A stretch of 32,000 bases of DNA from Longivirga aurantiaca (GCF_042660085.1 NZ_JBHSTI010000008.1:2205604-2237603), one strand, 5' to 3'; shown: positions 21,642-32,000, numbered from the stretch's first letter. Program-made: numbers and translations. The notes: generated from the letters alone by a model not told the origin.

Positions 21642-21677
21642 GGGCGGCACGCCGGCCCGCCGCGAGCGCCCCGGCGC

Positions 21678-21683
21678 TACCGT
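21678..21683 (+). promoter_or_regulatory. candidate -10 box (TACCGT) for leaderless orphan gene
   Basis: TANNNT hexamer 6 nt upstream of the GTG at 21690; no SD. Confidence 0.3.
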
Positions 21684-21689
21684 GACGGC

Positions 21690-22604
21690 GTGACGTTCCC
21701 CGAGCAGGACGAGCCGTTTCAGCACGGATCCACGGTGCTGCCCGGTGTCCCGCTGCCCGCGAGCGCGCACCCGCACGCTCCGGTCGCGCCTCCCCCGCCG
21801 TCGTCCGCGCCCCGCGTCGACCTCGCTCCGCCCGTGGACGAGCCCCGCGTCGACCTGCCTTCGCCCGTGGCCGAGCCCCCGACGCCGACGACCGACCCCG
21901 CTCCCCCGTCCGCCGGTCCCGCCGCGGGAGACATCGAGCCCGCTGCCCTGCCGCCTCGCGGCCGGCACGCGGCACCGGCGCCGCCCGCCACGCCCGCTCG
22001 CGGCGGTTCGCGCCTGCTGGTGCTCGCCGTGATCGGGCTCCTCGTGGTGCTCGTGGCGGTCGCTGCGTTCGTGTGGCCCGGGTTCCTGACCGCTTCCGAC
22101 GACGGCGAGGCCGCCGGCTCCCCCACGGCGTCACCGTCCGTCAGCGCCCTGGCGGTGTCGCTCTCCACACCCGACCGGATCGACGGGATGCGCCGGTTCG
22201 CCGGTGCCGCCGACAAGGCGCTCGACGCCTCGGTGGCGAAGGCCTCGGTCGCAGGCCTCACCGACCCGGTCAGCGCCGTCTACGGCAGGGGGACGGCGCC
22301 GCTCGTGCAGGTGATCGCGTGGAAGGCCGTCTCGCCGCCGGCCGAGGACACCGTGACCGCTGCCTTCACCGGCTTCGAGGGATCGACCGGCGCCAAGGTC
22401 ACAGCCGTGCGCGAGGTCGCGGTGCCGGACCGGGGTGGGCACATGGAGTGCGGGCTCGCGACGGTCGAGAAGGCAAGGACGCTGCAGTGCTTCTGGGCCG
22501 ACGACGCGTCGTTCGGCGCGGTCACGGTGCTGTCGGCGTCGGACCGTCAGAAGGCGACGTCGACGGCGGTCGCCGTACGGACCGCGGTGGAGCAGACCGG
22601 CTAG
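21690..22604 (+). CDS. hypothetical single-pass membrane protein (Pro-rich cytoplasmic N-terminus, TM, extracytoplasmic domain with two Cys)
   Basis: 304 aa with consistent G/C third positions. Pro-rich N-terminal region, TM segment LLVLAVIGLLVVLVAVAAFVWPGF, and a C-terminal ~170-aa domain containing ECGLATVEKARTLQCFWADD. No family recognised. Confidence 0.7.
   Translation: MTFPEQDEPFQHGSTVLPGVPLPASAHPHAPVAPPPPSSAPRVDLAPPVDEPRVDLPSPVAEPPTPTTDPAPPSAGPAAGDIEPAALPPRGRHAAPAPPATPARGGSRLLVLAVIGLLVVLVAVAAFVWPGFLTASDDGEAAGSPTASPSVSALAVSLSTPDRIDGMRRFAGAADKALDASVAKASVAGLTDPVSAVYGRGTAPLVQVIAWKAVSPPAEDTVTAAFTGFEGSTGAKVTAVREVAVPDRGGHMECGLATVEKARTLQCFWADDASFGAVTVLSASDRQKATSTAVAVRTAVEQTG
21810..21875 (+). 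repeat. 33-bp tandem repeat x2 inside the orphan gene (11-aa PRVDLxxPVxE units)
   Basis: CCCCGCGTCGACCTCGCTCCGCCCGTGGACGAG / CCCCGCGTCGACCTGCCTTCGCCCGTGGCCGAG, encoding PRVDLAPPVDE and PRVDLPSPVAE. Confidence 0.9.
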
Positions 22605-25535: not shown

Positions 25536-26855
25536 TCAGTGGTGGTGACCCTCGTGGTCGTCGTGGTCGTGGATCTCGGGGACGCCGGCCGTGCCGAGGT
25601 CGTTGAGGGCCGAGAGGTCGATGACCGTTCCCTCGGTGTCGACGATGCGCGCGTGCTCGAGCACGTGGGCGAGCGCCTTGCTGCGGCGCACCTCGGCCAC
25701 GGCCGCGGGCACCTGGCCGGCGTTGACGAGCTCCTGGGCGAACTGGTCGGGAGTCATGCCGTAGCGGGGCGCCTGCTGCACGAGCCAGGACGAGAGCTCG
25801 GCCTCGGAGACCGCGAGCTCCTCCTGCTCGGCGATCTTGTCCAGGATGAGCTGGCTCTTGAGGCCGTCGCGGGTCTGGGTCTCGACCTCGGTGCGGTGGT
25901 CGTCGTCGCCGTGCCCGTCGACGAAGTGCTCCGCGACCTGCTGCGTGACGGCGCCCTCGGGCACCGGCACCTCGGTCGCGGCCAGGAGGGCTGCGGCGAC
26001 CTTCTCGCGGGCGGCGTAGCCCTGCTCGAGGAGCTTGACGCGGCCGAGGCGCTCGCGGAGGTCGTCCTTGAGCTCGTCGATGGTGTCGAACTCCGACGCG
26101 AGCTGGGCGAAGTCGTCGTCCGCCGCCGGGAGCTCGCGCTCGCGGACGGTCGTGATCGTGACGGTGACGCTGATGTCCTTGCCCTCGAACTCGCCGCCCT
26201 CGGGGGTGAACGAGAACGTGCGCTCGTCGCCGGCGCTCGCGCCCTCGACGGCCTCGTCGAAGCCGGGGAGCATCCCGCCGGTGCCGACCTCGTACGACAT
26301 GGCGCTCGCGTCGAGGTCCTCGACCGACTCGCCGTCGAGCTGGCCGGCGAGGTCGAACAGGATCACGTCGCCGGTCGTCGCGGCGCGCTCGACGGTCTTG
26401 AGCGAGCCGAAGCGGCTGCGCAGGCCCGTGAGCTGGGAGTCGATGTCCTCCTCGGAGACGACGGCCGGGTCGACGACGACCTCGATGCTGTCGTACGCCG
26501 GCAGGTCGAACTCCGGGACGACGTCCATCTCGGCCGTGTACGAGAGCGGGGCGGCGTCCTCGAACGTCTGGACGTCGACCTCGGGGCGACCGAGCAGCTT
26601 GATGTCGTTCTCGCGGAGCGCGGCGTCGAGGCTCTCGTTGATCGCGTCGTTGACCGCCTCGTCGAGGACGGCGGCACGGCCGACGCGCTGGTCGATGACG
26701 CGGTTCGGGACCTTGCCCTTGCGGAACCCTGGCACCGAGATCTGCGCGGCGATGCGCTTGTACGCGGCGTCGAGCGAGGGCTTGAGCTCCTCGAACGGCA
26801 CCTCGACGGTGAGCTTCACCCGGGTGGGCGACAGGGTCTCGACGGCGCTCTTCAC
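25536..26855 (-). CDS. tig: trigger factor
   Basis: 439 aa. MKSAVETLSPTRVKLTVEVPFEELKP, ribosome-binding signature GFRKGKVP, and an acidic/His C-terminal tail. GTG start at 26855. Confidence 0.96.
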   Translation of the reverse strand: MKSAVETLSPTRVKLTVEVPFEELKPSLDAAYKRIAAQISVPGFRKGKVPNRVIDQRVGRAAVLDEAVNDAINESLDAALRENDIKLLGRPEVDVQTFEDAAPLSYTAEMDVVPEFDLPAYDSIEVVVDPAVVSEEDIDSQLTGLRSRFGSLKTVERAATTGDVILFDLAGQLDGESVEDLDASAMSYEVGTGGMLPGFDEAVEGASAGDERTFSFTPEGGEFEGKDISVTVTITTVRERELPAADDDFAQLASEFDTIDELKDDLRERLGRVKLLEQGYAAREKVAAALLAATEVPVPEGAVTQQVAEHFVDGHGDDDHRTEVETQTRDGLKSQLILDKIAEQEELAVSEAELSSWLVQQAPRYGMTPDQFAQELVNAGQVPAAVAEVRRSKALAHVLEHARIVDTEGTVIDLSALNDLGTAGVPEIHDHDDHEGHHH

Positions 26856-26927
26856 GTGGATCGGTGCTCCTGGGTCGGTACGTGCCGGACCGCGTCGTGC
26901 GGCCCGCCGGGGATCGTGCGGGAGGGT

Positions 26928-26960
26928 GGTGCGGGGCTGGTGCGGGGCTGGTGCGGGTCT
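26928..26960. repeat. 11-bp tandem repeat x3 (GGTGCGGGGCT) upstream of tig
   Basis: GGTGCGGGGCT GGTGCGGGGCT GGTGCGGGTCT. This forms part of six GTGCGG copies between 26897 and 26974. Confidence 0.9.
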
Positions 26961-26988
26961 GTCTCAGCGTGCGGGCCGGGGCCCTGGC

Positions 26989-27064
26989 TGGTCGGGGCGG
27001 GGAGACTCGAACTCCCGATCTCCTGCCCCCAAAGCAGGCGCGCTAGCCACTACGCTACGCCCCG
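26989..27064 (-). tRNA. tRNA-Pro (anticodon TGG), CCA encoded
   Basis: Hand-folded cloverleaf: CGGGGCG-TA-GCGT-AGTGGCTA-GCGC-G-CCTGC-TTTGGGG-GCAGG-AGATC-GGGAG-TTCGAGT-CTCCC-CGCCCCG-A-CCA. Confidence 0.93.
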
Positions 27065-27198: not shown

Positions 27199-27269
27199 GC
27201 GGGTGTAGCTCAATGGCAGAGCCCCAGCCTTCCAAGCTGGCCATGCCGGTTCGATCCCGGTCACCCGCT
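27199..27269 (+). tRNA. tRNA-Gly (anticodon TCC), CCA not encoded
   Basis: Hand-folded cloverleaf: GCGGGTG-TA-GCTC-AATGGCA-GAGC-C-CCAGC-CTTCCAA-GCTGG-CCAT-GCCGG-TTCGATC-CCGGT-CACCCGC-T. Confidence 0.93.
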
Positions 27270-27275
27270 CCGCTC

Positions 27276-27320
27276 GATGGCCCTGTCCCCGCCGGCGAAG
27301 CCGGCCAGGACGGGGCCATC
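27276..27320 (+). terminator. compound stem-loop 7 nt after tRNA-Gly
   Basis: GATGGCCCTGTCC pairs with GGACGGGGCCATC (13 bp, one G-U), enclosing GCCGGC-GAA-GCCGGC. Confidence 0.55.
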
Positions 27321-27424
27321 GTCGCTCCGCGGGTGGACGGGATCGGGAGGAACCCGACGCACCACCCACGACCCACCGCGCCGAAGGCGCCCCCTGGTCG
27401 TCCCCTGTGCCCCACCGAGACGGA

Positions 27425-27437
27425 CCCGGTCACCCGC
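27425..27437 (+). repeat. 13-bp exact duplicate of the tRNA-Gly 3' end (att-like)
   Basis: CCCGGTCACCCGC occurs at 27256-27268 (T-arm/acceptor 3' strand of tRNA-Gly) and again at 27425-27437. The match is 15 of 16 if extended by 3 nt. Confidence 0.8.
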
Positions 27438-27442
27438 CCCAG

Positions 27443-27523
27443 GAACCACGTGCGACCGTTCCCGGCACCGCGAGCGCGCCCACCCACCGCGACCCAGAAC
27501 CGCGTGCCACCGTTCCCGGCACC
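27443..27523 (+). repeat. two 27-bp direct repeats (54-bp period), each containing GAAC-N11-GTTC
   Basis: GAACCACGTGCGACCGTTCCCGGCACC (27443-27469) versus GAACCGCGTGCCACCGTTCCCGGCACC (27497-27523), 25 of 27 identical. Confidence 0.85.
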
Positions 27524-27593
27524 CGTGAAGGGTGGAGAAGTCCACCAAGTAGCAGCGAAGGCCCCCTCCATCGCGATCCAGCAGACTGGGCGG

Positions 27594-28204: not shown

Positions 28205-29506
28205 TCAGCCGGAAGCCGGTGGGAGCGCCGGCAGGGCGCGCTGGCGGAGCCAGCCGTCGAACAGGTCGGAGAGCGGAACGCCCGCCACCCGCACCGCGAG
28301 CGACTCGAACATCTCGCTGCTGACCGAGCCGTAGCGGTGCCGCTCGACCCACGTGCGCAGGAGCGTGAAGAACGTGTCGTCGCCGATCGTCAGCCGCAGC
28401 GAGTGCAGCAGGAGGGCACCTCGCTTGTAGACGCGGTCGTCGAACATGAGGTCGGGCCCCGGGTCGCCGAGCAGGAGGTCCTGCGGCTTCGCAGCCAGCC
28501 TGGCCCAGTGGTCGCGGGCTCGCCCATCGGCGGAGCGACCTCCCGACTCCTCGGACCACAGCCACTCGCAGTAGCAGGCGAATCCCTCGTGCAGCCAGAT
28601 GTCGCGCCAGGACGACGCGGTGACGGCGTTGCCGAACCACTGGTGCGACAGCTCGTGCGCCACGAGGCGGACGTTGTCCCAGTCGTCGGTCAGGAAGTTC
28701 GACCCGAAGGTCGACATCCCTTGCGCCTCCAGCGGTATGTCCAGCTCGTCCTCGGTGATCACCACGGTGTAGCCGGCGAACGGGTACGGGCCGAACGTGC
28801 GGGCGTAGAAGTCGAGCATGGCCGGCTGGTCGCCGAAGGCGGAGTCGTACTGGCGCAGGAGCCGCTGCGGGAGCACGGCCGTCATCGGGACGGACGAGCC
28901 CTCCACCCGGTGGGCCACGTAGCGGCCGATCTGCACCGTCGCGAGGTACGTCGCCATCGGCTCGTGCTGCTCGTAGACCCACCTGGTCGTGCTGGCCGAG
29001 CGCCACCGGCTGGTGCACATTCCGTTGGCGACCACGTGGTATGCGTTGGGCGCCGTCAGCTCGATGCGGTAGGTCGCCTTGTCGTCCGGGCGGTCGTTGC
29101 ACGGGAACCACGAGGGCGCGCCGTTGGTCTGGCCCGCGACGAGGACTCCGTCGGCGAGCTCCTCCCAGCCGCACTCGTCGTCGCCGTCGGGCACGGGCTT
29201 CGGCTGTCCGCCGTAGCTCACGACGACGCGGAACCCCTCCGCCGCCTTGATCGGGCGCCGCGGCACCACGACCAGGTGGTCGGCGCGGGCGGTGTACCGG
29301 GCAGCGCCGCCGTCGACCGTCACCTTCGTGACGCGGAGCCCGGAGAGGTCGAGCCGCAGCTGACGCAGGTCCACGACCGCCTCGGCCGTCAGCGCCGCCT
29401 TGCCGCGGAGGTGGTTGGTGTCGACGTCGTACGACAGCGTGAGGTCGTAGTGCGACACCGCGTACGAACGGTCCCCACGATGCGGGAAGTACTCCGGCGC
29501 CTTCAC
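28205..29506 (-). CDS. M1-family zinc metallopeptidase (aminopeptidase N-like, ~433 aa, no signal peptide seen)
   Basis: HEXXH-X18-E zinc site HELSHQWFGNAVTASSWRDIWLHEGFA (HELSH at 28657-28643), with a GAMEN-position variant DIPLEAQ upstream. GTG at 29506 is preceded by GAGGAG and overlaps the stop of the NRPS gene (GTGA). Confidence 0.88.
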   Translation of the reverse strand: MKAPEYFPHRGDRSYAVSHYDLTLSYDVDTNHLRGKAALTAEAVVDLRQLRLDLSGLRVTKVTVDGGAARYTARADHLVVVPRRPIKAAEGFRVVVSYGGQPKPVPDGDDECGWEELADGVLVAGQTNGAPSWFPCNDRPDDKATYRIELTAPNAYHVVANGMCTSRWRSASTTRWVYEQHEPMATYLATVQIGRYVAHRVEGSSVPMTAVLPQRLLRQYDSAFGDQPAMLDFYARTFGPYPFAGYTVVITEDELDIPLEAQGMSTFGSNFLTDDWDNVRLVAHELSHQWFGNAVTASSWRDIWLHEGFACYCEWLWSEESGGRSADGRARDHWARLAAKPQDLLLGDPGPDLMFDDRVYKRGALLLHSLRLTIGDDTFFTLLRTWVERHRYGSVSSEMFESLAVRVAGVPLSDLFDGWLRQRALPALPPASG

Positions 29507-32000
29507 TCGTCTCCTCGGACGTCGACCTGCTGCCACGGACCGATCGGGTTGCCGATCCACCGCGTCTTGTCGGGCACGAACTCCCCGCGCATCACCAGCG
29601 ACACCGGCCCGACCGTGGCATGCCGCCCGAGCGTGGCCGCGGGAAGGATGACGCTGTTGGGGCCGAGGGTCGAGCCGGTCCGCAGCGTGACCGTGTCCAT
29701 GCTGAGCACGCGGTCGTGGAACAGGTGCGTCTGCACCACGCAGCCCTGGTTGACGGTGGCTCCTGCCTGGAGGTTGATGAGGTCTGCCTCGGGGAGCCAA
29801 TAGGTCTCGCACCACACCCCTCGTCCGATCCTCGCACCCAGCGAGCGCAGCCAGAGGTTGAGGACCGGCGTACCCGTCGCGGGCCGGGCGAACCACGGTG
29901 CAGCCACGGCCTCGACGAAGGTGTCCGCCAGCTCGTTGCGCCACACGAACGAGCTCCAGAGAGGGTGGTCGCCGACACGGAGCCGACCGACGAGGACCCA
30001 CTTGGCCAGCGTCGTCACCGAGGCAGCAGCCGTCGCGGCCGCGATGACGACGAGCCCGCTCAGCAGCGCCGCCGTCCACCAGCCGTACGCCGAGGCGAGC
30101 GCGATCTGGGCGACCACGACGCCGAGCCCGACCGCGACTCCGACCATCACGGGGACGAGCCGGCACAGCTCGACCAGGACGCGCGCGACCTTCAGGCGCG
30201 ACGGCGGGTCGTAGGTGCGGCTCCGGTCGGCCTTCTGCTCGACCCTGCGCAGCTTGGTCGGGGGGCTGCCGAGCCACGAGGTGCCGCTCTTGGCCTTCGT
30301 CCGGCGTGGCGCCGCGGACAGCACGGCGACGAGCCCGCGCTTGGGCACCTTGCGGCCGGGGGCTGCCATCCCGGAGTTGCCCACGAACGCGTGCTTCCCG
30401 ATCTCGACGTGCTCCACCCGCAGCCAGCCGCCGCCGAGCTCGTACCCGCCGAGGAGCGTGTCGTCGGCGAGGAAGGCCCCCTCGCGCACCGCGGTCAGCT
30501 TGGGGATGAGAAGGACGGTCGAAGCCTCGACGCCCGGCCCGACGCTCGCACCCAACGAGCGCAGCCAGGCCGGCGTGAGCGAGCTCGAGTAGAGCGGGAA
30601 CAGCCACGTCCGCGCCTCGTCGAGCGCACGCAGGGTCGCCCACGCCTGCCAGGCCCTCAGCCCGTGCACCGGATGCGCCCCCGGCACGAGCCCGACCCCG
30701 AGCAGCCGCACGACGAGCCAGATGAGCAGGGCCAGGACCAGGAGGGCGACGACCGTCGCGACCGGCAGCCAGAGCATCGCGCGCAGCGCGGCCGCCCCCA
30801 CCGATCCGGCACCGGTCAGCTGCGGTGCGACGACGGCGAGGGCAGCGACGGTGGCGACGCCGGGGAGCGCAGCGATGACGACCGCGATCCCGGTGTAGGC
30901 GACCACCCACACCGGGCGGTTGCGCGGGCGCTCGTCCCACGGGCCGCGTGCCGCCTTGCGCAGCCGCGCAGGCGCGCCGGCCCACATCTCCCCCGCCGGC
31001 ACGACGTCGAAGACCGCCGACCCCGGCGCGATCTCCGCGCCGGCGCCGATGACCGCACCGGGAGCGAGCGTGCTGCGCATGCCGATCCGCGCGTCGGGCC
31101 CGATCTCGATGGCGCCGACACGCAGCAGGTCGCCGTCGAGCCAGTGGCCCGAGAGGTCGACCTCGGGCTCGACCGAGCACCCGTCGCCGAGCACGAGGTG
31201 GCCGGTGACGGGCGGGATCGAGTGGAGGTCGACGTGCCGACCGACGCGCACCCCGAGCAGCCGCGCGTAGAGCCGCATGAGCGTTGCTCCGGCGAGGTTC
31301 GCTGCACCGAGCTCCTCCGCCAGCCGCTCGGCGAACCACACCCGCAGGTGCACGGGACCACCGCGCGGATAGGTGCCCGGGCCGATGCCTGCGAGCACCA
31401 GCCGCGCACCGGCAGCGGTCAGCAGCATGCGGCCGGGAGCCGACACCAGCAGGAGCCAGGCGACGACGATGACGGGCCACGGCGCCGTGGGCAGCCAGCC
31501 GACGCCGAGCCACTGCGACGCAGCCGTGGTGCCGAACGCGACCCACGTGAGCCAGCGCAGACCGGTGATCGCGCGGAGCGGAAGGGTGAGCAGGACCTGC
31601 ACGATCTGCGATCCACGGGACACCGGGTGCACCGTGCGGTCGACGTACGCCGCCGGGGTGGCCAGCTCGTCGAGCGCCAGGGCGAGGTCGCCGATCCGAG
31701 GGTGGTCGTAGACCTCGGCGACCGTGACCTCGGGGTACGTCGCGCGCAGCCGCGAGACGAGCTGCGCGGCCGCGAGGCTGCCGCCCCCGAGGTCGAAGAA
31801 GTCGTCCTCGGTGCTGGTCACCGTCGCCCCGAGGATGTCGGCCCAGATGTCCTGCAGCTGCCCGGCGGTGCCCTCGAGGCGCGTCGTCTCGGTCGTGTCG
31901 ACGCTCGCGAGCGGCCACGGAAGCGCGTCGCGGTCGATCTTGCCGGAGGTGCGCGTCGGCAGCGTCTCGACCTGCGCGAGCCGAGGGACGAGCGCTGCCG
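29503..32000 (-). CDS. Pls/PosA-type single-module NRPS, 3' portion (end of A domain, PCP, three TM-flanked acyltransferase-like domains); 5' end outside window
   Basis: The frame is open from 31998 to the TGA at 29503. It contains the A10 motif LPTRTSGKIDRDAL (31962-31921) and the PCP motif LQDIWADILG...DDFFDLGGGSL (Ser codon 31779-31777). About 700 aa follow, with six hydrophobic helices in pairs alternating with three related soluble domains. The track ORF start at 31821 is an internal Val. Confidence 0.88.
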   Translation of the reverse strand, partial: AALVPRLAQVETLPTRTSGKIDRDALPWPLASVDTTETTRLEGTAGQLQDIWADILGATVTSTEDDFFDLGGGSLAAAQLVSRLRATYPEVTVAEVYDHPRIGDLALALDELATPAAYVDRTVHPVSRGSQIVQVLLTLPLRAITGLRWLTWVAFGTTAASQWLGVGWLPTAPWPVIVVAWLLLVSAPGRMLLTAAGARLVLAGIGPGTYPRGGPVHLRVWFAERLAEELGAANLAGATLMRLYARLLGVRVGRHVDLHSIPPVTGHLVLGDGCSVEPEVDLSGHWLDGDLLRVGAIEIGPDARIGMRSTLAPGAVIGAGAEIAPGSAVFDVVPAGEMWAGAPARLRKAARGPWDERPRNRPVWVVAYTGIAVVIAALPGVATVAALAVVAPQLTGAGSVGAAALRAMLWLPVATVVALLVLALLIWLVVRLLGVGLVPGAHPVHGLRAWQAWATLRALDEARTWLFPLYSSSLTPAWLRSLGASVGPGVEASTVLLIPKLTAVREGAFLADDTLLGGYELGGGWLRVEHVEIGKHAFVGNSGMAAPGRKVPKRGLVAVLSAAPRRTKAKSGTSWLGSPPTKLRRVEQKADRSRTYDPPSRLKVARVLVELCRLVPVMVGVAVGLGVVVAQIALASAYGWWTAALLSGLVVIAAATAAASVTTLAKWVLVGRLRVGDHPLWSSFVWRNELADTFVEAVAAPWFARPATGTPVLNLWLRSLGARIGRGVWCETYWLPEADLINLQAGATVNQGCVVQTHLFHDRVLSMDTVTLRTGSTLGPNSVILPAATLGRHATVGPVSLVMRGEFVPDKTRWIGNPIGPWQQVDVRGDE

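What the first reader, a model, noticed from the sequence alone, without database searches (positions are those of the whole stretch)
29503..32000. Pls/PosA-type membrane NRPS: candidate homopoly(amino acid) synthetase with unknown monomer
Read directly from the minus strand: the end of an adenylation domain (A10 LPTRTSGKIDRDAL) is followed by a carrier domain (DDFFDLGGGSL). No condensation or thioesterase domain follows. Instead there are about 700 aa built as [2 TM helices + soluble domain] x3. The three soluble domains are visibly paralogous: LYARLLGVRVGRHV, AWLRSLGASVGPGV, LWLRSLGARIGRGV, each followed by hexapeptide-like G/V/I-rich turns. This A-T-(TM2-C)x3 layout is the hallmark described for epsilon-poly-L-lysine synthetase Pls of Streptomyces albulus. 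The same layout is reported for relatives making poly-diaminopropionate, poly-diaminobutyrate or delta-poly-ornithine (PosA). Here the gene sits right after a highly conserved core block (tig, tRNA-Pro, tRNA-Gly) and forms a compact cassette with its own PPTase and a coupled peptidase. The specificity-conferring A-domain residues lie beyond position 32000, so the polymer made, if any, is open. It could be a new cationic homopolymer.
Basis: partly seen in the sequence, partly recalled or inferred. Interest (0 to 1): 0.75.

Follow-up and report, generated by a model that had tools for sequence, protein, structure and literature searches.

The report
Ordinary epsilon-poly-lysine synthetase gene cassette
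This is the tail end of a membrane enzyme that almost certainly strings lysine into the known antimicrobial polymer epsilon-poly-L-lysine, with its usual partner peptidase and an activating enzyme next to it, so it is a new example of a well-known system and not a new polymer.

Summary
The minus-strand ORF 29503-31998 encodes the last 831 aa of a 1284-aa protein. These cover the A10 motif, a carrier domain, and three repeats of [two TM helices + hexapeptide-repeat domain], with no C or TE domain. It scores 681.8 bits on TIGR02353 (cut-off 423.1) and is 100% identical to RefSeq's "Pls/PosA family NRPS" of Longivirga aurantiaca.

The "unknown monomer" reading does not hold. The full protein has an intact A domain, 64.6% identical to the solved S. 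albulus Pls A domain (7WEW). Its 10-residue specificity code is DAESIGTVVK, identical to the published Pls (lysine) code.

The downstream M1 peptidase starts with a GTG that overlaps the synthetase's TGA (GTGA). This 4-nt coupling is the one published for pls-pldII in S. albulus, and a homologous peptidase follows pls in at least 62 of 80 actinobacterial loci. A convergent Sfp-type PPTase completes a three-gene module. The module is kept in three relatives whose flanking genes all differ.

The gene is under purifying selection (dN/dS 0.10).

Verdict: a new, uncharacterised member of the known pls/pldII kind, with epsilon-poly-L-lysine as the predicted product. Interest is low. The only mildly unusual points are the attached PPTase and a peptidase with no export signal.

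The parts
29503..31998 (-). 3' two-thirds of the pls-like gene (last 831 of 1284 codons plus the TGA stop); the 5' 453 codons lie beyond the window
   Evidence: GC by codon position 0.74/0.54/0.93; dN/dS 0.10 against the 92% orthologue
31921..31962 (-). A10 motif LPTRTSGKIDRDAL; Lys20 (TSGK) is the tenth residue of the specificity code (K517 equivalent)
31678..31860 (-). Carrier (T/PCP) domain, aa 47-107; the phosphopantetheine-attachment Ser74 in GGGSL is encoded at 31777-31779
   Evidence: Pfam PF00550, E 5e-13; Ser74 is invariant in 40 homologues
31396..31617 (-). TM helix pair 1 (aa 128-201)
   Evidence: AF2 helices 128-163 and 174-201, pLDDT >90; hydropathy flags aa 166-196 only
30916..31395 (-). 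C1: helical sub-domain plus left-handed beta-helix (aa 202-361)
   Evidence: Hexapep hit at aa 298-329; paralogy test; AF2 and Foldseek hits to LbH acetyltransferases
30697..30912 (-). TM helix pair 2 (aa 363-434)
30202..30696 (-). C2 domain (aa 435-599)
29992..30201 (-). TM helix pair 3 (aa 600-669)
29506..29991 (-). C3 domain (aa 670-831)
28205..29506 (-). PldII-like M1 zinc peptidase, 433 aa. Its GTG start (29504-29506) overlaps the pls TGA (GTGA). HELSH-X18-E is intact, GxMEN is replaced by AQGMS, and there is no signal peptide
   Evidence: Pfam PF01433 and PF17900; coordinates; motifs; 40% identical to the gene after pls in Streptomyces locus L001
27525..28202 (+). Sfp-type 4'-phosphopantetheinyl transferase, convergent with the peptidase (stop codons 2 nt apart); the start is GTG 27525 or GTG 27594
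   Evidence: PF01648 at 23.3 bits, just under the cut-off of 25; GPVGVDIE and WVRTEALLKA motifs; 75% and 43% identical to the genes in the same position in L081 and L082, the latter carrying PF01648 on record
27199..27271 (+). tRNA-Gly(UCC), which borders the module
26989..27064 (-). tRNA-Pro(UGG)

Best explanation
The region is the pls/pldII system of an actinomycete (Longivirga aurantiaca, Sporichthyales), with a dedicated PPTase attached.

Proposed mechanism:
1. The PPTase converts the carrier-domain Ser (GGGS) into its phosphopantetheine form.
2. The single A domain, whose first 453 aa lie outside the window, adenylates L-lysine and loads it as a thioester on the T domain.
3. The C-terminal ~700 aa act as the polymerase. 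Six TM helices anchor three paralogous left-handed beta-helix (acetyltransferase-like) domains, which pack as a pseudo-trimer on the cytoplasmic face.
4. The epsilon-amino group of a free lysine or of the growing free chain attacks the Lys-S-T thioester, so the chain grows by iteration without a template. The product, epsilon-poly-L-lysine, is released to the outside.
5. The translationally coupled M1 metallopeptidase hydrolyses the polymer, for self-protection or chain trimming. Here it has no export signal, so it probably acts inside the cell.

Shown here: family membership, domain order, an intact gene under purifying selection, specificity code identical to Pls, the coupled peptidase, and the conserved three-gene module.
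Inferred: lysine as substrate, epsilon linkage, polymer length, direction of export, and the role and location of the peptidase.
For: Family and architecture:
- TIGR02353 at 681.8 bits against a cut-off of 423.1, covering the full model.
- The complete protein P0001 has AMP-binding, PP-binding and Hexapep domains and nothing else.
- The AF2 model (pTM 0.75) shows three TM-pair plus beta-helix repeats. Its Foldseek hits are LbH acetyltransferases, matching the pseudo-threefold model described for PosA.

Lysine specificity:
- The A domain matches PDB 7WEW (epsilon-PL synthase) at E 4e-186 and 64.6% identity.
- The code DAESIGTVVK, read with a residue mapping that reproduces the published Pls code on the 7WEW sequence, is identical to Pls (Lys). 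It differs from PosA (DMEHNGTVSK, Orn), the Dab, D-Dab and Dap enzymes (DFE...) and the beta-Lys enzyme (DGESVSVVNK).
- 78 of 81 Pls-like sequences share the code.
- Overall identity to a Streptomyces Pls orthologue (L001, whose A domain is 93% identical to S. albulus Pls) is 55% over 1287 aa. This exceeds the 51% of the C. variabile enzyme, which was shown to make 26-35-mer epsilon-PL.

Peptidase and module:
- pldII is published as adjacent to pls with a 4-nt overlap. The same GTGA overlap is present here.
- A homologous peptidase follows pls in at least 62 of the 80 loci, and 47 of 62 have a start candidate that overlaps the pls stop.
- The pls, peptidase and convergent PPTase module is kept in L081, L083 and L082.

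Selection: dN/dS is 0.10.
Against: - No biochemistry: substrate, linkage and chain length are predictions.
- The specificity code was read from the database protein P0001, not from the window, which holds only the tenth residue.
- S. albulus Pls itself was not retrieved at full length. The C-terminal comparison (50% identity) uses a proxy, L001.
- The peptidase is only 40% identical to the Streptomyces PldII-type gene and lacks the Tat-like signal seen in the S. albulus-like loci. Its role may therefore differ from that of the published extracytoplasmic PldII.
- The PPTase Pfam score is just below the gathering threshold.
- C. variabile did not make epsilon-PL natively, so expression cannot be assumed.
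Confidence: 0.8

Rival explanations
1. One reading: a Pls/PosA-type synthetase that polymerises a different monomer (Orn, Dab, Dap, beta-Lys, Arg or something new) into a new cationic homopolymer.
For: The family is known to contain enzymes for at least six polymers, plus members whose codes are uncharacterised. Specificity codes are predictive, not decisive.
Against: - The code is identical at all 10 positions to the lysine enzyme, including Ala at position 2, which PMC10522769 identifies as the chain-length determinant (Phe for Dap/Dab, Met for Orn, Ala for Lys, Gly for beta-Lys).
- The A domain is 64.6% identical to S. albulus Pls. In Jiang et al., the Dap and Dab synthetases were only 31-33% identical to the Pls-type enzyme of C. 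variabile, which was 51% identical to Pls.
- The coupled peptidase context is reported as specific to pls and not to the other synthetases.
- No aminomutase, racemase or Dab/Dap-supply gene lies in the module, nor upstream in the 92% relative L081.
Confidence: 0.06
2. The enzyme activates lysine, but the system does not work as an antibiotic factory. With a cytoplasmic peptidase and its own PPTase in a small genome, it makes short or cell-associated lysine oligomers with a physiological role such as envelope charge, nitrogen or lysine storage, or stress response.
For: - The peptidase has no signal peptide here or in 59 of 62 loci, unlike the three S. albulus-like loci.
- The module sits among housekeeping genes.
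- The biological significance of these polymers is described as unclear in the literature (abstract of PMC9606270).
Against: There is no direct evidence for it. The C. variabile enzyme made ordinary 26-35-mers when expressed. Lack of a signal peptide is a negative, sequence-only inference.
Confidence: 0.1
3. The gene is a silent or decaying relic that makes nothing.
For: C. variabile Pls protein was undetectable in the native host. No expression data exist for this organism.
Against: The 1284-codon ORF is uninterrupted. dN/dS is 0.10 against the 92% orthologue. All catalytic motifs, the carrier Ser and about 200 invariant C-terminal columns are kept. The overlap with the peptidase is retained.
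Confidence: 0.03

Closest known systems
Epsilon-poly-L-lysine synthetase Pls of Streptomyces albulus (BAG68864; A-domain structure PDB 7WEW), together with its coupled degrading enzyme PldII
   Same: - Same A-T-(TM pair + acetyltransferase-like domain)x3 order.
- Identical specificity code, DAESIGTVVK.
- A domain 64.6% identical.
- An M1 peptidase directly downstream whose start codon overlaps the synthetase stop codon by 4 nt.
   Different: - About 55% overall identity, measured against a close proxy.
- The peptidase is 40% identical and lacks the Tat-like signal of the S. albulus-type loci.
- A dedicated PPTase is attached.
- The host is a Sporichthyales bacterium, and the module lies between housekeeping genes next to tRNA-Gly, not in a Streptomyces secondary-metabolite cluster region.
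Pls of Corynebacterium variabile and other coryneform Actinobacteria (Jiang et al. 2021, PMC8117764)
   Same: A non-Streptomyces Pls orthologue with the same or nearly the same pocket, in an operon with a peptidase. It was shown to make 26-35-mer epsilon-PL on heterologous expression.
   Different: Different lineage. That paper reports no adjacent PPTase. The Longivirga enzyme is untested.
PosA, the delta-poly-L-ornithine synthetase of Acinetobacter baumannii (PDB 8G95-8G98)
   Same: Same family (TIGR02353) and the same predicted pseudo-threefold polymerase domain.
   Different: Its code is DMEHNGTVSK (Met at position 2). It is a single-gene operon without a peptidase. The PDB match to the PosA A domain is far weaker (192.9 bits against 624.3 for Pls).
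Poly-Dap, poly-L/D-Dab and poly-beta-lysine synthetases (S. albulus PD-1, S. celluloflavus, Streptoalloteichus hindustanus)
   Same: Same overall architecture.
   Different: Their codes are DFE... or DGESVSVVNK. Their gene contexts differ (monomer-supply genes, no pldII-type peptidase).

Membership tests
Pls/PosA family NRPS (TIGR02353; cationic homopoly-amino-acid synthetases) | C-terminal ~700-aa domain scoring above the curated TIGR02353 cut-off | tested here: met
   681.8 bits against 423.1, model positions 2-695/695, E 1e-204
Pls/PosA family NRPS (TIGR02353; cationic homopoly-amino-acid synthetases) | A single N-terminal adenylation domain followed by one carrier domain | tested here: met
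   The window holds A10 and PP-binding. The 100%-identical full protein P0001 has AMP-binding at aa 19-344 and PP-binding at aa 500-560.
Pls/PosA family NRPS (TIGR02353; cationic homopoly-amino-acid synthetases) | No conventional condensation or thioesterase domain | tested here: met
   A Pfam scan of the whole protein gives only three families.
Pls/PosA family NRPS (TIGR02353; cationic homopoly-amino-acid synthetases) | Six TM helices in three pairs, separating three paralogous acetyltransferase-like (LbH) domains | tested here: met
   Hydropathy, AF2 helices and strands, paralogy at 38-47 bits against shuffles of at most 30 bits, LbH hits
Epsilon-poly-L-lysine synthetase (Pls) subgroup | A-domain specificity code of the lysine enzymes (DAESIGTVVK, Ala at position 2, Glu at position 3) | tested here: met
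   Identical at 10/10 positions. The mapping was validated on the 7WEW sequence against the published code.
Epsilon-poly-L-lysine synthetase (Pls) subgroup | At least 40% identity over at least 80% coverage to a confirmed Pls (criterion of Jiang et al.) | tested here: met
   64.6% to the S. albulus A domain. 55% over 1287 aa to L001, a proxy whose A domain is 93% identical to S. albulus Pls. Full-length S. albulus Pls itself was not retrieved.
Epsilon-poly-L-lysine synthetase (Pls) subgroup | Operon with a pldII-type peptidase, translationally coupled | tested here: met
   GTGA overlap at 29503-29506; published for S. albulus and Corynebacterium; a homologous peptidase follows pls in at least 62 of 80 loci
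Epsilon-poly-L-lysine synthetase (Pls) subgroup | Makes epsilon-linked poly-L-lysine | not testable with these tools
   Needs expression and mass spectrometry or chemical labelling.
PldII-type epsilon-PL-degrading M1 peptidase | M1 fold with the HExxH-X18-E zinc site | tested here: met
   PF01433 at 103 bits and PF17900 at 55 bits; HELSHQWFGN...WLHEGFACY is conserved across the aligned orthologues.
PldII-type epsilon-PL-degrading M1 peptidase | Located outside the membrane (as reported for S. albulus PldII) | tested here: not met
   No signal peptide or hydrophobic N-terminus. The Tat-like RRALLRGAAL motif occurs only in L001, L002 and L004. This is sequence inference only.
Sfp-type 4'-phosphopantetheinyl transferase (PF01648) | Pfam ACPS domain with the GxD-x-E and WxxKEAxxK motifs | tested here: inconclusive
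   23.3 bits against a cut-off of 25. Both motifs are present, and the positional orthologues in L082 and L083 carry PF01648 on record.

The most novel reading that the evidence does not exclude
The pls, signal-less M1 peptidase and PPTase trio is a self-sufficient, movable three-gene module. It has landed at different housekeeping sites in Sporichthyales and Nanopelagicales-type actinobacteria: next to tRNA-Gly/tig here, between a class II aminoacyl-tRNA synthetase gene (likely lysS) and lsr2 in a 72% relative, and elsewhere in an 86% relative. In these hosts the lysine polymer would be processed inside the cell and would serve a physiological role instead of acting as a secreted antibiotic.
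Probability: 0.1. Interest if true: 0.45.

Novelty: new member of a known kind. Interest (0 to 1): 0.15.

Why it matters
It matters little for discovery. The predicted product, epsilon-poly-L-lysine, is a known and commercially used polymer. The gene is already labelled Pls/PosA family in RefSeq, and Pls orthologues with this pocket are very common in Actinomycetota.

Three points are modestly useful:
- It documents a compact module with its own PPTase, which could be a convenient minimal cassette for heterologous epsilon-PL production.
- It notes that most PldII-like peptidases outside the S. albulus group lack an export signal, which bears on how self-protection or chain trimming works.

Tried and rejected
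- Exact look-up of P0001 in the contig collection, to extend the window upstream, found nothing. The upstream context was taken from the 92% relative L081 instead.
- A second protein search with the 7WEW A-domain sequence, meant to retrieve full-length S. albulus Pls, returned mainly partial proteins and not Pls itself. The genome scan also lacked S. albulus, so its closest locus L001 (93%) was used as a proxy.
- My first recollection of where the GrsA specificity residues sit was wrong. I re-derived the positions and accepted the mapping only after it reproduced the published Pls code on the 7WEW sequence.
- A PDB sequence search with the C-terminal 709 aa found no solved polymerase domain, only weak LbH and gamma-carbonic-anhydrase matches to each repeat. 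Foldseek likewise found no whole-architecture match.
- A literature search for a cryo-EM structure of Pls found none. A search for a reported pls-PPTase linkage found none.
- I considered that the module integrated at tRNA-Gly. Only 16-17-nt partial copies of the tRNA 3' end lie nearby, and a 22-nt probe with 3 mismatches hits only the tRNA itself. The idea remains unproven.
- Adjacency to tig as a conserved feature is rejected. tig is not within 10 kb of pls in any of the 80 loci, and two of the three close relatives have other flanks.


Full report
**What is in the sequence.** The window has about 72% G+C. Translating the minus strand from base 31998 gives an open frame of 831 codons, which ends at a TGA at 29503-29505 and runs off the window edge. 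G+C by codon position is 0.74/0.54/0.93, the pattern of a real gene in a high-GC genome.

Pfam finds a carrier domain (aa 47-107, E 5e-13) and hexapeptide repeats. NCBIfam TIGR02353, "Pls/PosA family non-ribosomal peptide synthetase", matches aa 133-819 across its whole length (positions 2-695 of 695), with E 1e-204 and 681.8 bits against a curated cut-off of 423.1.

The AlphaFold2 model of the 831 aa (pTM 0.75, mean pLDDT 74) places three pairs of long helices at aa 128-201, 363-434 and 600-669. Each pair is followed by a helical segment and a beta-helix. A hydropathy scan flags the second helix of pair 1 and both helices of pairs 2 and 3. The three soluble segments are paralogous: pairwise BLASTP gives 38-47 bits, while 100 shuffles each give a mean of 15 and a maximum of 23-30 bits.

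The closest solved folds are left-handed beta-helix acyltransferases, namely serine and galactoside acetyltransferases. No solved structure matches the whole architecture. This agrees with the pseudo-threefold model described for PosA.

**The missing N-terminus.** The 831 aa are 100% identical to the C-terminal part of a 1284-aa RefSeq protein, which RefSeq names [quoted passage not shown] (P0001). The organism belongs to the Sporichthyaceae. The full protein has AMP-binding (aa 19-344), PP-binding and Hexapep domains, and no condensation or thioesterase domain. Against the 92%-identical orthologue (L081), dN/dS over the 831 codons is 0.10, so the gene is under purifying selection.

**Which monomer.** The A domain's best solved relative is the epsilon-poly-L-lysine synthase A domain of S. 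albulus (7WEW): E 4e-186, 624 bits, 64.6% identity. The PosA A domain scores only 193 bits.

I located the ten specificity positions and checked the mapping on the 7WEW sequence. It returns DAESIGTVVK, exactly the code printed for S. albulus Pls in Supplementary Table 2 of Patel and Gulick (PMC10522769). Applied to P0001, the same positions (197, 198, 201, 240, 261, 263, 285, 293, 294, 473) also read DAESIGTVVK.

The other characterised enzymes differ: PosA is DMEHNGTVSK, poly-Dab DFECLSAVTK, poly-Dap DFEYVGTVTK, poly-beta-Lys DGESVSVVNK and poly-D-Dab DFECLSCVSK. The same paper argues that position 2 sets substrate length (Phe for Dap/Dab, Met for Orn, Ala for Lys).

Among Pls-like genes from 80 actinobacterial genomes plus P0001, 78 of 81 have this code and the other three have DAESIGTVIK. 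Overall identity to the Streptomyces orthologue L001, whose A domain is 93% identical to S. albulus Pls, is 55% over 1287 aa, and 50% in the polymerase part. The C. variabile enzyme, at 51% identity to Pls, was shown to make 26-35-mer epsilon-PL. In the same comparison, the Dap and Dab synthetases were only 31-33% identical to it. Lysine is therefore the strongly favoured substrate. The "unknown monomer" premise only reflected where the window ends.

**The neighbours.**
- *Peptidase.* A 433-aa M1 zinc peptidase lies directly downstream at 28205-29506 (PF01433 103 bits, PF17900 55 bits). Its GTG start overlaps the synthetase TGA as GTGA. This is the published arrangement of pls and pldII in S. 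albulus: "4-bp overlap, single operon" and "translationally coupled". Jiang et al. report that the peptidase operon distinguishes pls from the other three synthetases.
- *How common the pairing is.* In my survey a homologous peptidase follows pls in at least 62 of 80 loci. In 47 of 62, a start codon overlaps the pls stop by 4 or 1 nt.
- *Peptidase motifs.* The window's peptidase is 40% identical to that of L001. The HExxH-X18-E site is conserved. The GxMEN exopeptidase motif is replaced by AQG[MIL]S[ITV]FG in nearly all orthologues aligned. That fits an enzyme that does not grip a normal alpha-amino terminus, but this is inference.
- *Peptidase location.* Only the three S. albulus-like loci have a Tat-like N-terminus. 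The window's protein and 59 others have none. The extracytoplasmic location reported for S. albulus PldII therefore probably does not apply here.
- *PPTase.* On the + strand, convergent and ending 2 nt from the peptidase stop, lies a ~200-225-aa Sfp-type PPTase at 27525/27594-28202. It has GPVGVDIE and WVRTEALLKA motifs and scores 23.3 bits on PF01648, just under the cut-off of 25. Its positional orthologues are 75% (L081) and 43% (L082) identical, and those of L082 and L083 have PF01648 on record.
- *The module as a unit.* The trio of pls, peptidase and convergent PPTase is conserved in three relatives (92%, 86% and 72% Pls identity) whose flanking genes all differ: Fic/DUF4262/tig in one, DMFA2_C/GMC oxidoreductase in another, and a class II aminoacyl-tRNA synthetase (likely lysS)/lsr2-clpC in the third. 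A PPTase also sits there in a few Micrococcales loci.
- *tig.* Adjacency to tig is not a general feature: none of the 80 loci has tig within 10 kb of pls.

**Mechanism (best explanation, confidence about 0.8).** The PPTase primes Ser74 of the carrier domain. The A domain activates L-lysine and loads it. The membrane-anchored pseudo-trimer of beta-helix domains then catalyses repeated attack of an epsilon-amino group on the lysyl thioester, giving epsilon-poly-L-lysine. The coupled peptidase hydrolyses the polymer, for self-protection or trimming.

What is shown here is the architecture, family membership, gene integrity, the specificity code and the conserved gene context. Substrate, linkage, chain length, export and the peptidase's role are inferred from the characterised S. 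albulus and C. variabile systems.

**Rivals.**
- A different monomer, about 0.06. The identical code and the pls-specific gene context argue against it.
- A lysine polymer with a non-antibiotic, cell-internal role, about 0.1. The signal-less peptidase and the housekeeping location suggest it, but nothing tests it.
- A silent relic, about 0.03. The dN/dS value and the intact motifs argue against it.

**Novelty.** This is a new, uncharacterised member of a known kind. The gene already carries the correct family name in RefSeq. Their distribution outside Streptomyces is published. Interest is low (0.15).

**Rest of the window.** It is a housekeeping block: proB, obg, rpmA, rplU, RNase E/G, DUF2344, a radical-SAM gene, rodA, PBP2, mreC, mreB, ndk, DUF4233, folC, valS, clpX, two clpP genes and tig.

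Noticed in passing
window 27272-27524: The 250-bp spacer between tRNA-Gly and the PPTase holds three features: a 22-nt hairpin right after the tRNA (27275-27321); two partial copies of the tRNA-Gly 3' end, one inverted (27329-27345) and one direct (27425-27440, 15/16); and a 27-nt direct repeat (27443-27469 / 27497-27523, 93%). These could be scars of integration at the tRNA gene, but a 22-nt probe with 3 mismatches finds only the tRNA itself.
   Followed up: partly
window 28205-29506 (-); loci L001-L080: The PldII-like peptidase has no signal peptide. Among 62 loci, only the three S. albulus-like Streptomyces loci (L001, L002, L004) carry a Tat-like RRALLRGAAL N-terminus. The extracytoplasmic location reported for S. 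albulus PldII may therefore be the exception.
   Followed up: partly
window ~28715-28741 (-), peptidase aa 260-268: The M1 exopeptidase motif GxMEN is replaced by AQG[MIL]S[ITV]FG in nearly all PldII-like orthologues aligned, while HExxH-X18-E is kept. This may relate to action on epsilon-linked chains.
   Followed up: partly
L081 10001-15773; L083 3731-9456; L082 10001-16007: The three-gene module (pls, M1 peptidase with a 4-nt overlap, convergent PPTase) is conserved in relatives with 92%, 86% and 72% Pls identity, and the flanking genes differ completely in each. In L082 it sits between a class II aminoacyl-tRNA synthetase gene (likely lysS) and lsr2/clpC.
   Followed up: partly
L081 15818-18334: In the 92% relative, a Fic-domain gene and a DUF4262 gene lie between the PPTase and tig, where Longivirga has only the tRNA genes. 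This junction varies between close relatives.
   Followed up: no
window 26924-26961: Three overlapping copies of a 16-nt unit at 11-nt spacing (GGCTGGTGCGGGGCTG), between the tig start and tRNA-Pro.
   Followed up: no
window 21642-22604 (+): A 320-codon ORF with gene-like codon composition (GC3 0.91), directly after valS, has no Pfam match.
   Followed up: no
window 25536-25570 (-): Trigger factor ends in a His-rich tail (HDHDDHEGHHH).
   Followed up: no
window 1-26963: The rest of the window is a conserved housekeeping block: proB, obg, rpmA, rplU, RNase E/G, DUF2344, radical SAM, rodA, PBP2, mreC, mreB, ndk, DUF4233, folC, valS (+ strand), clpX, two clpP genes and tig.
   Followed up: yes
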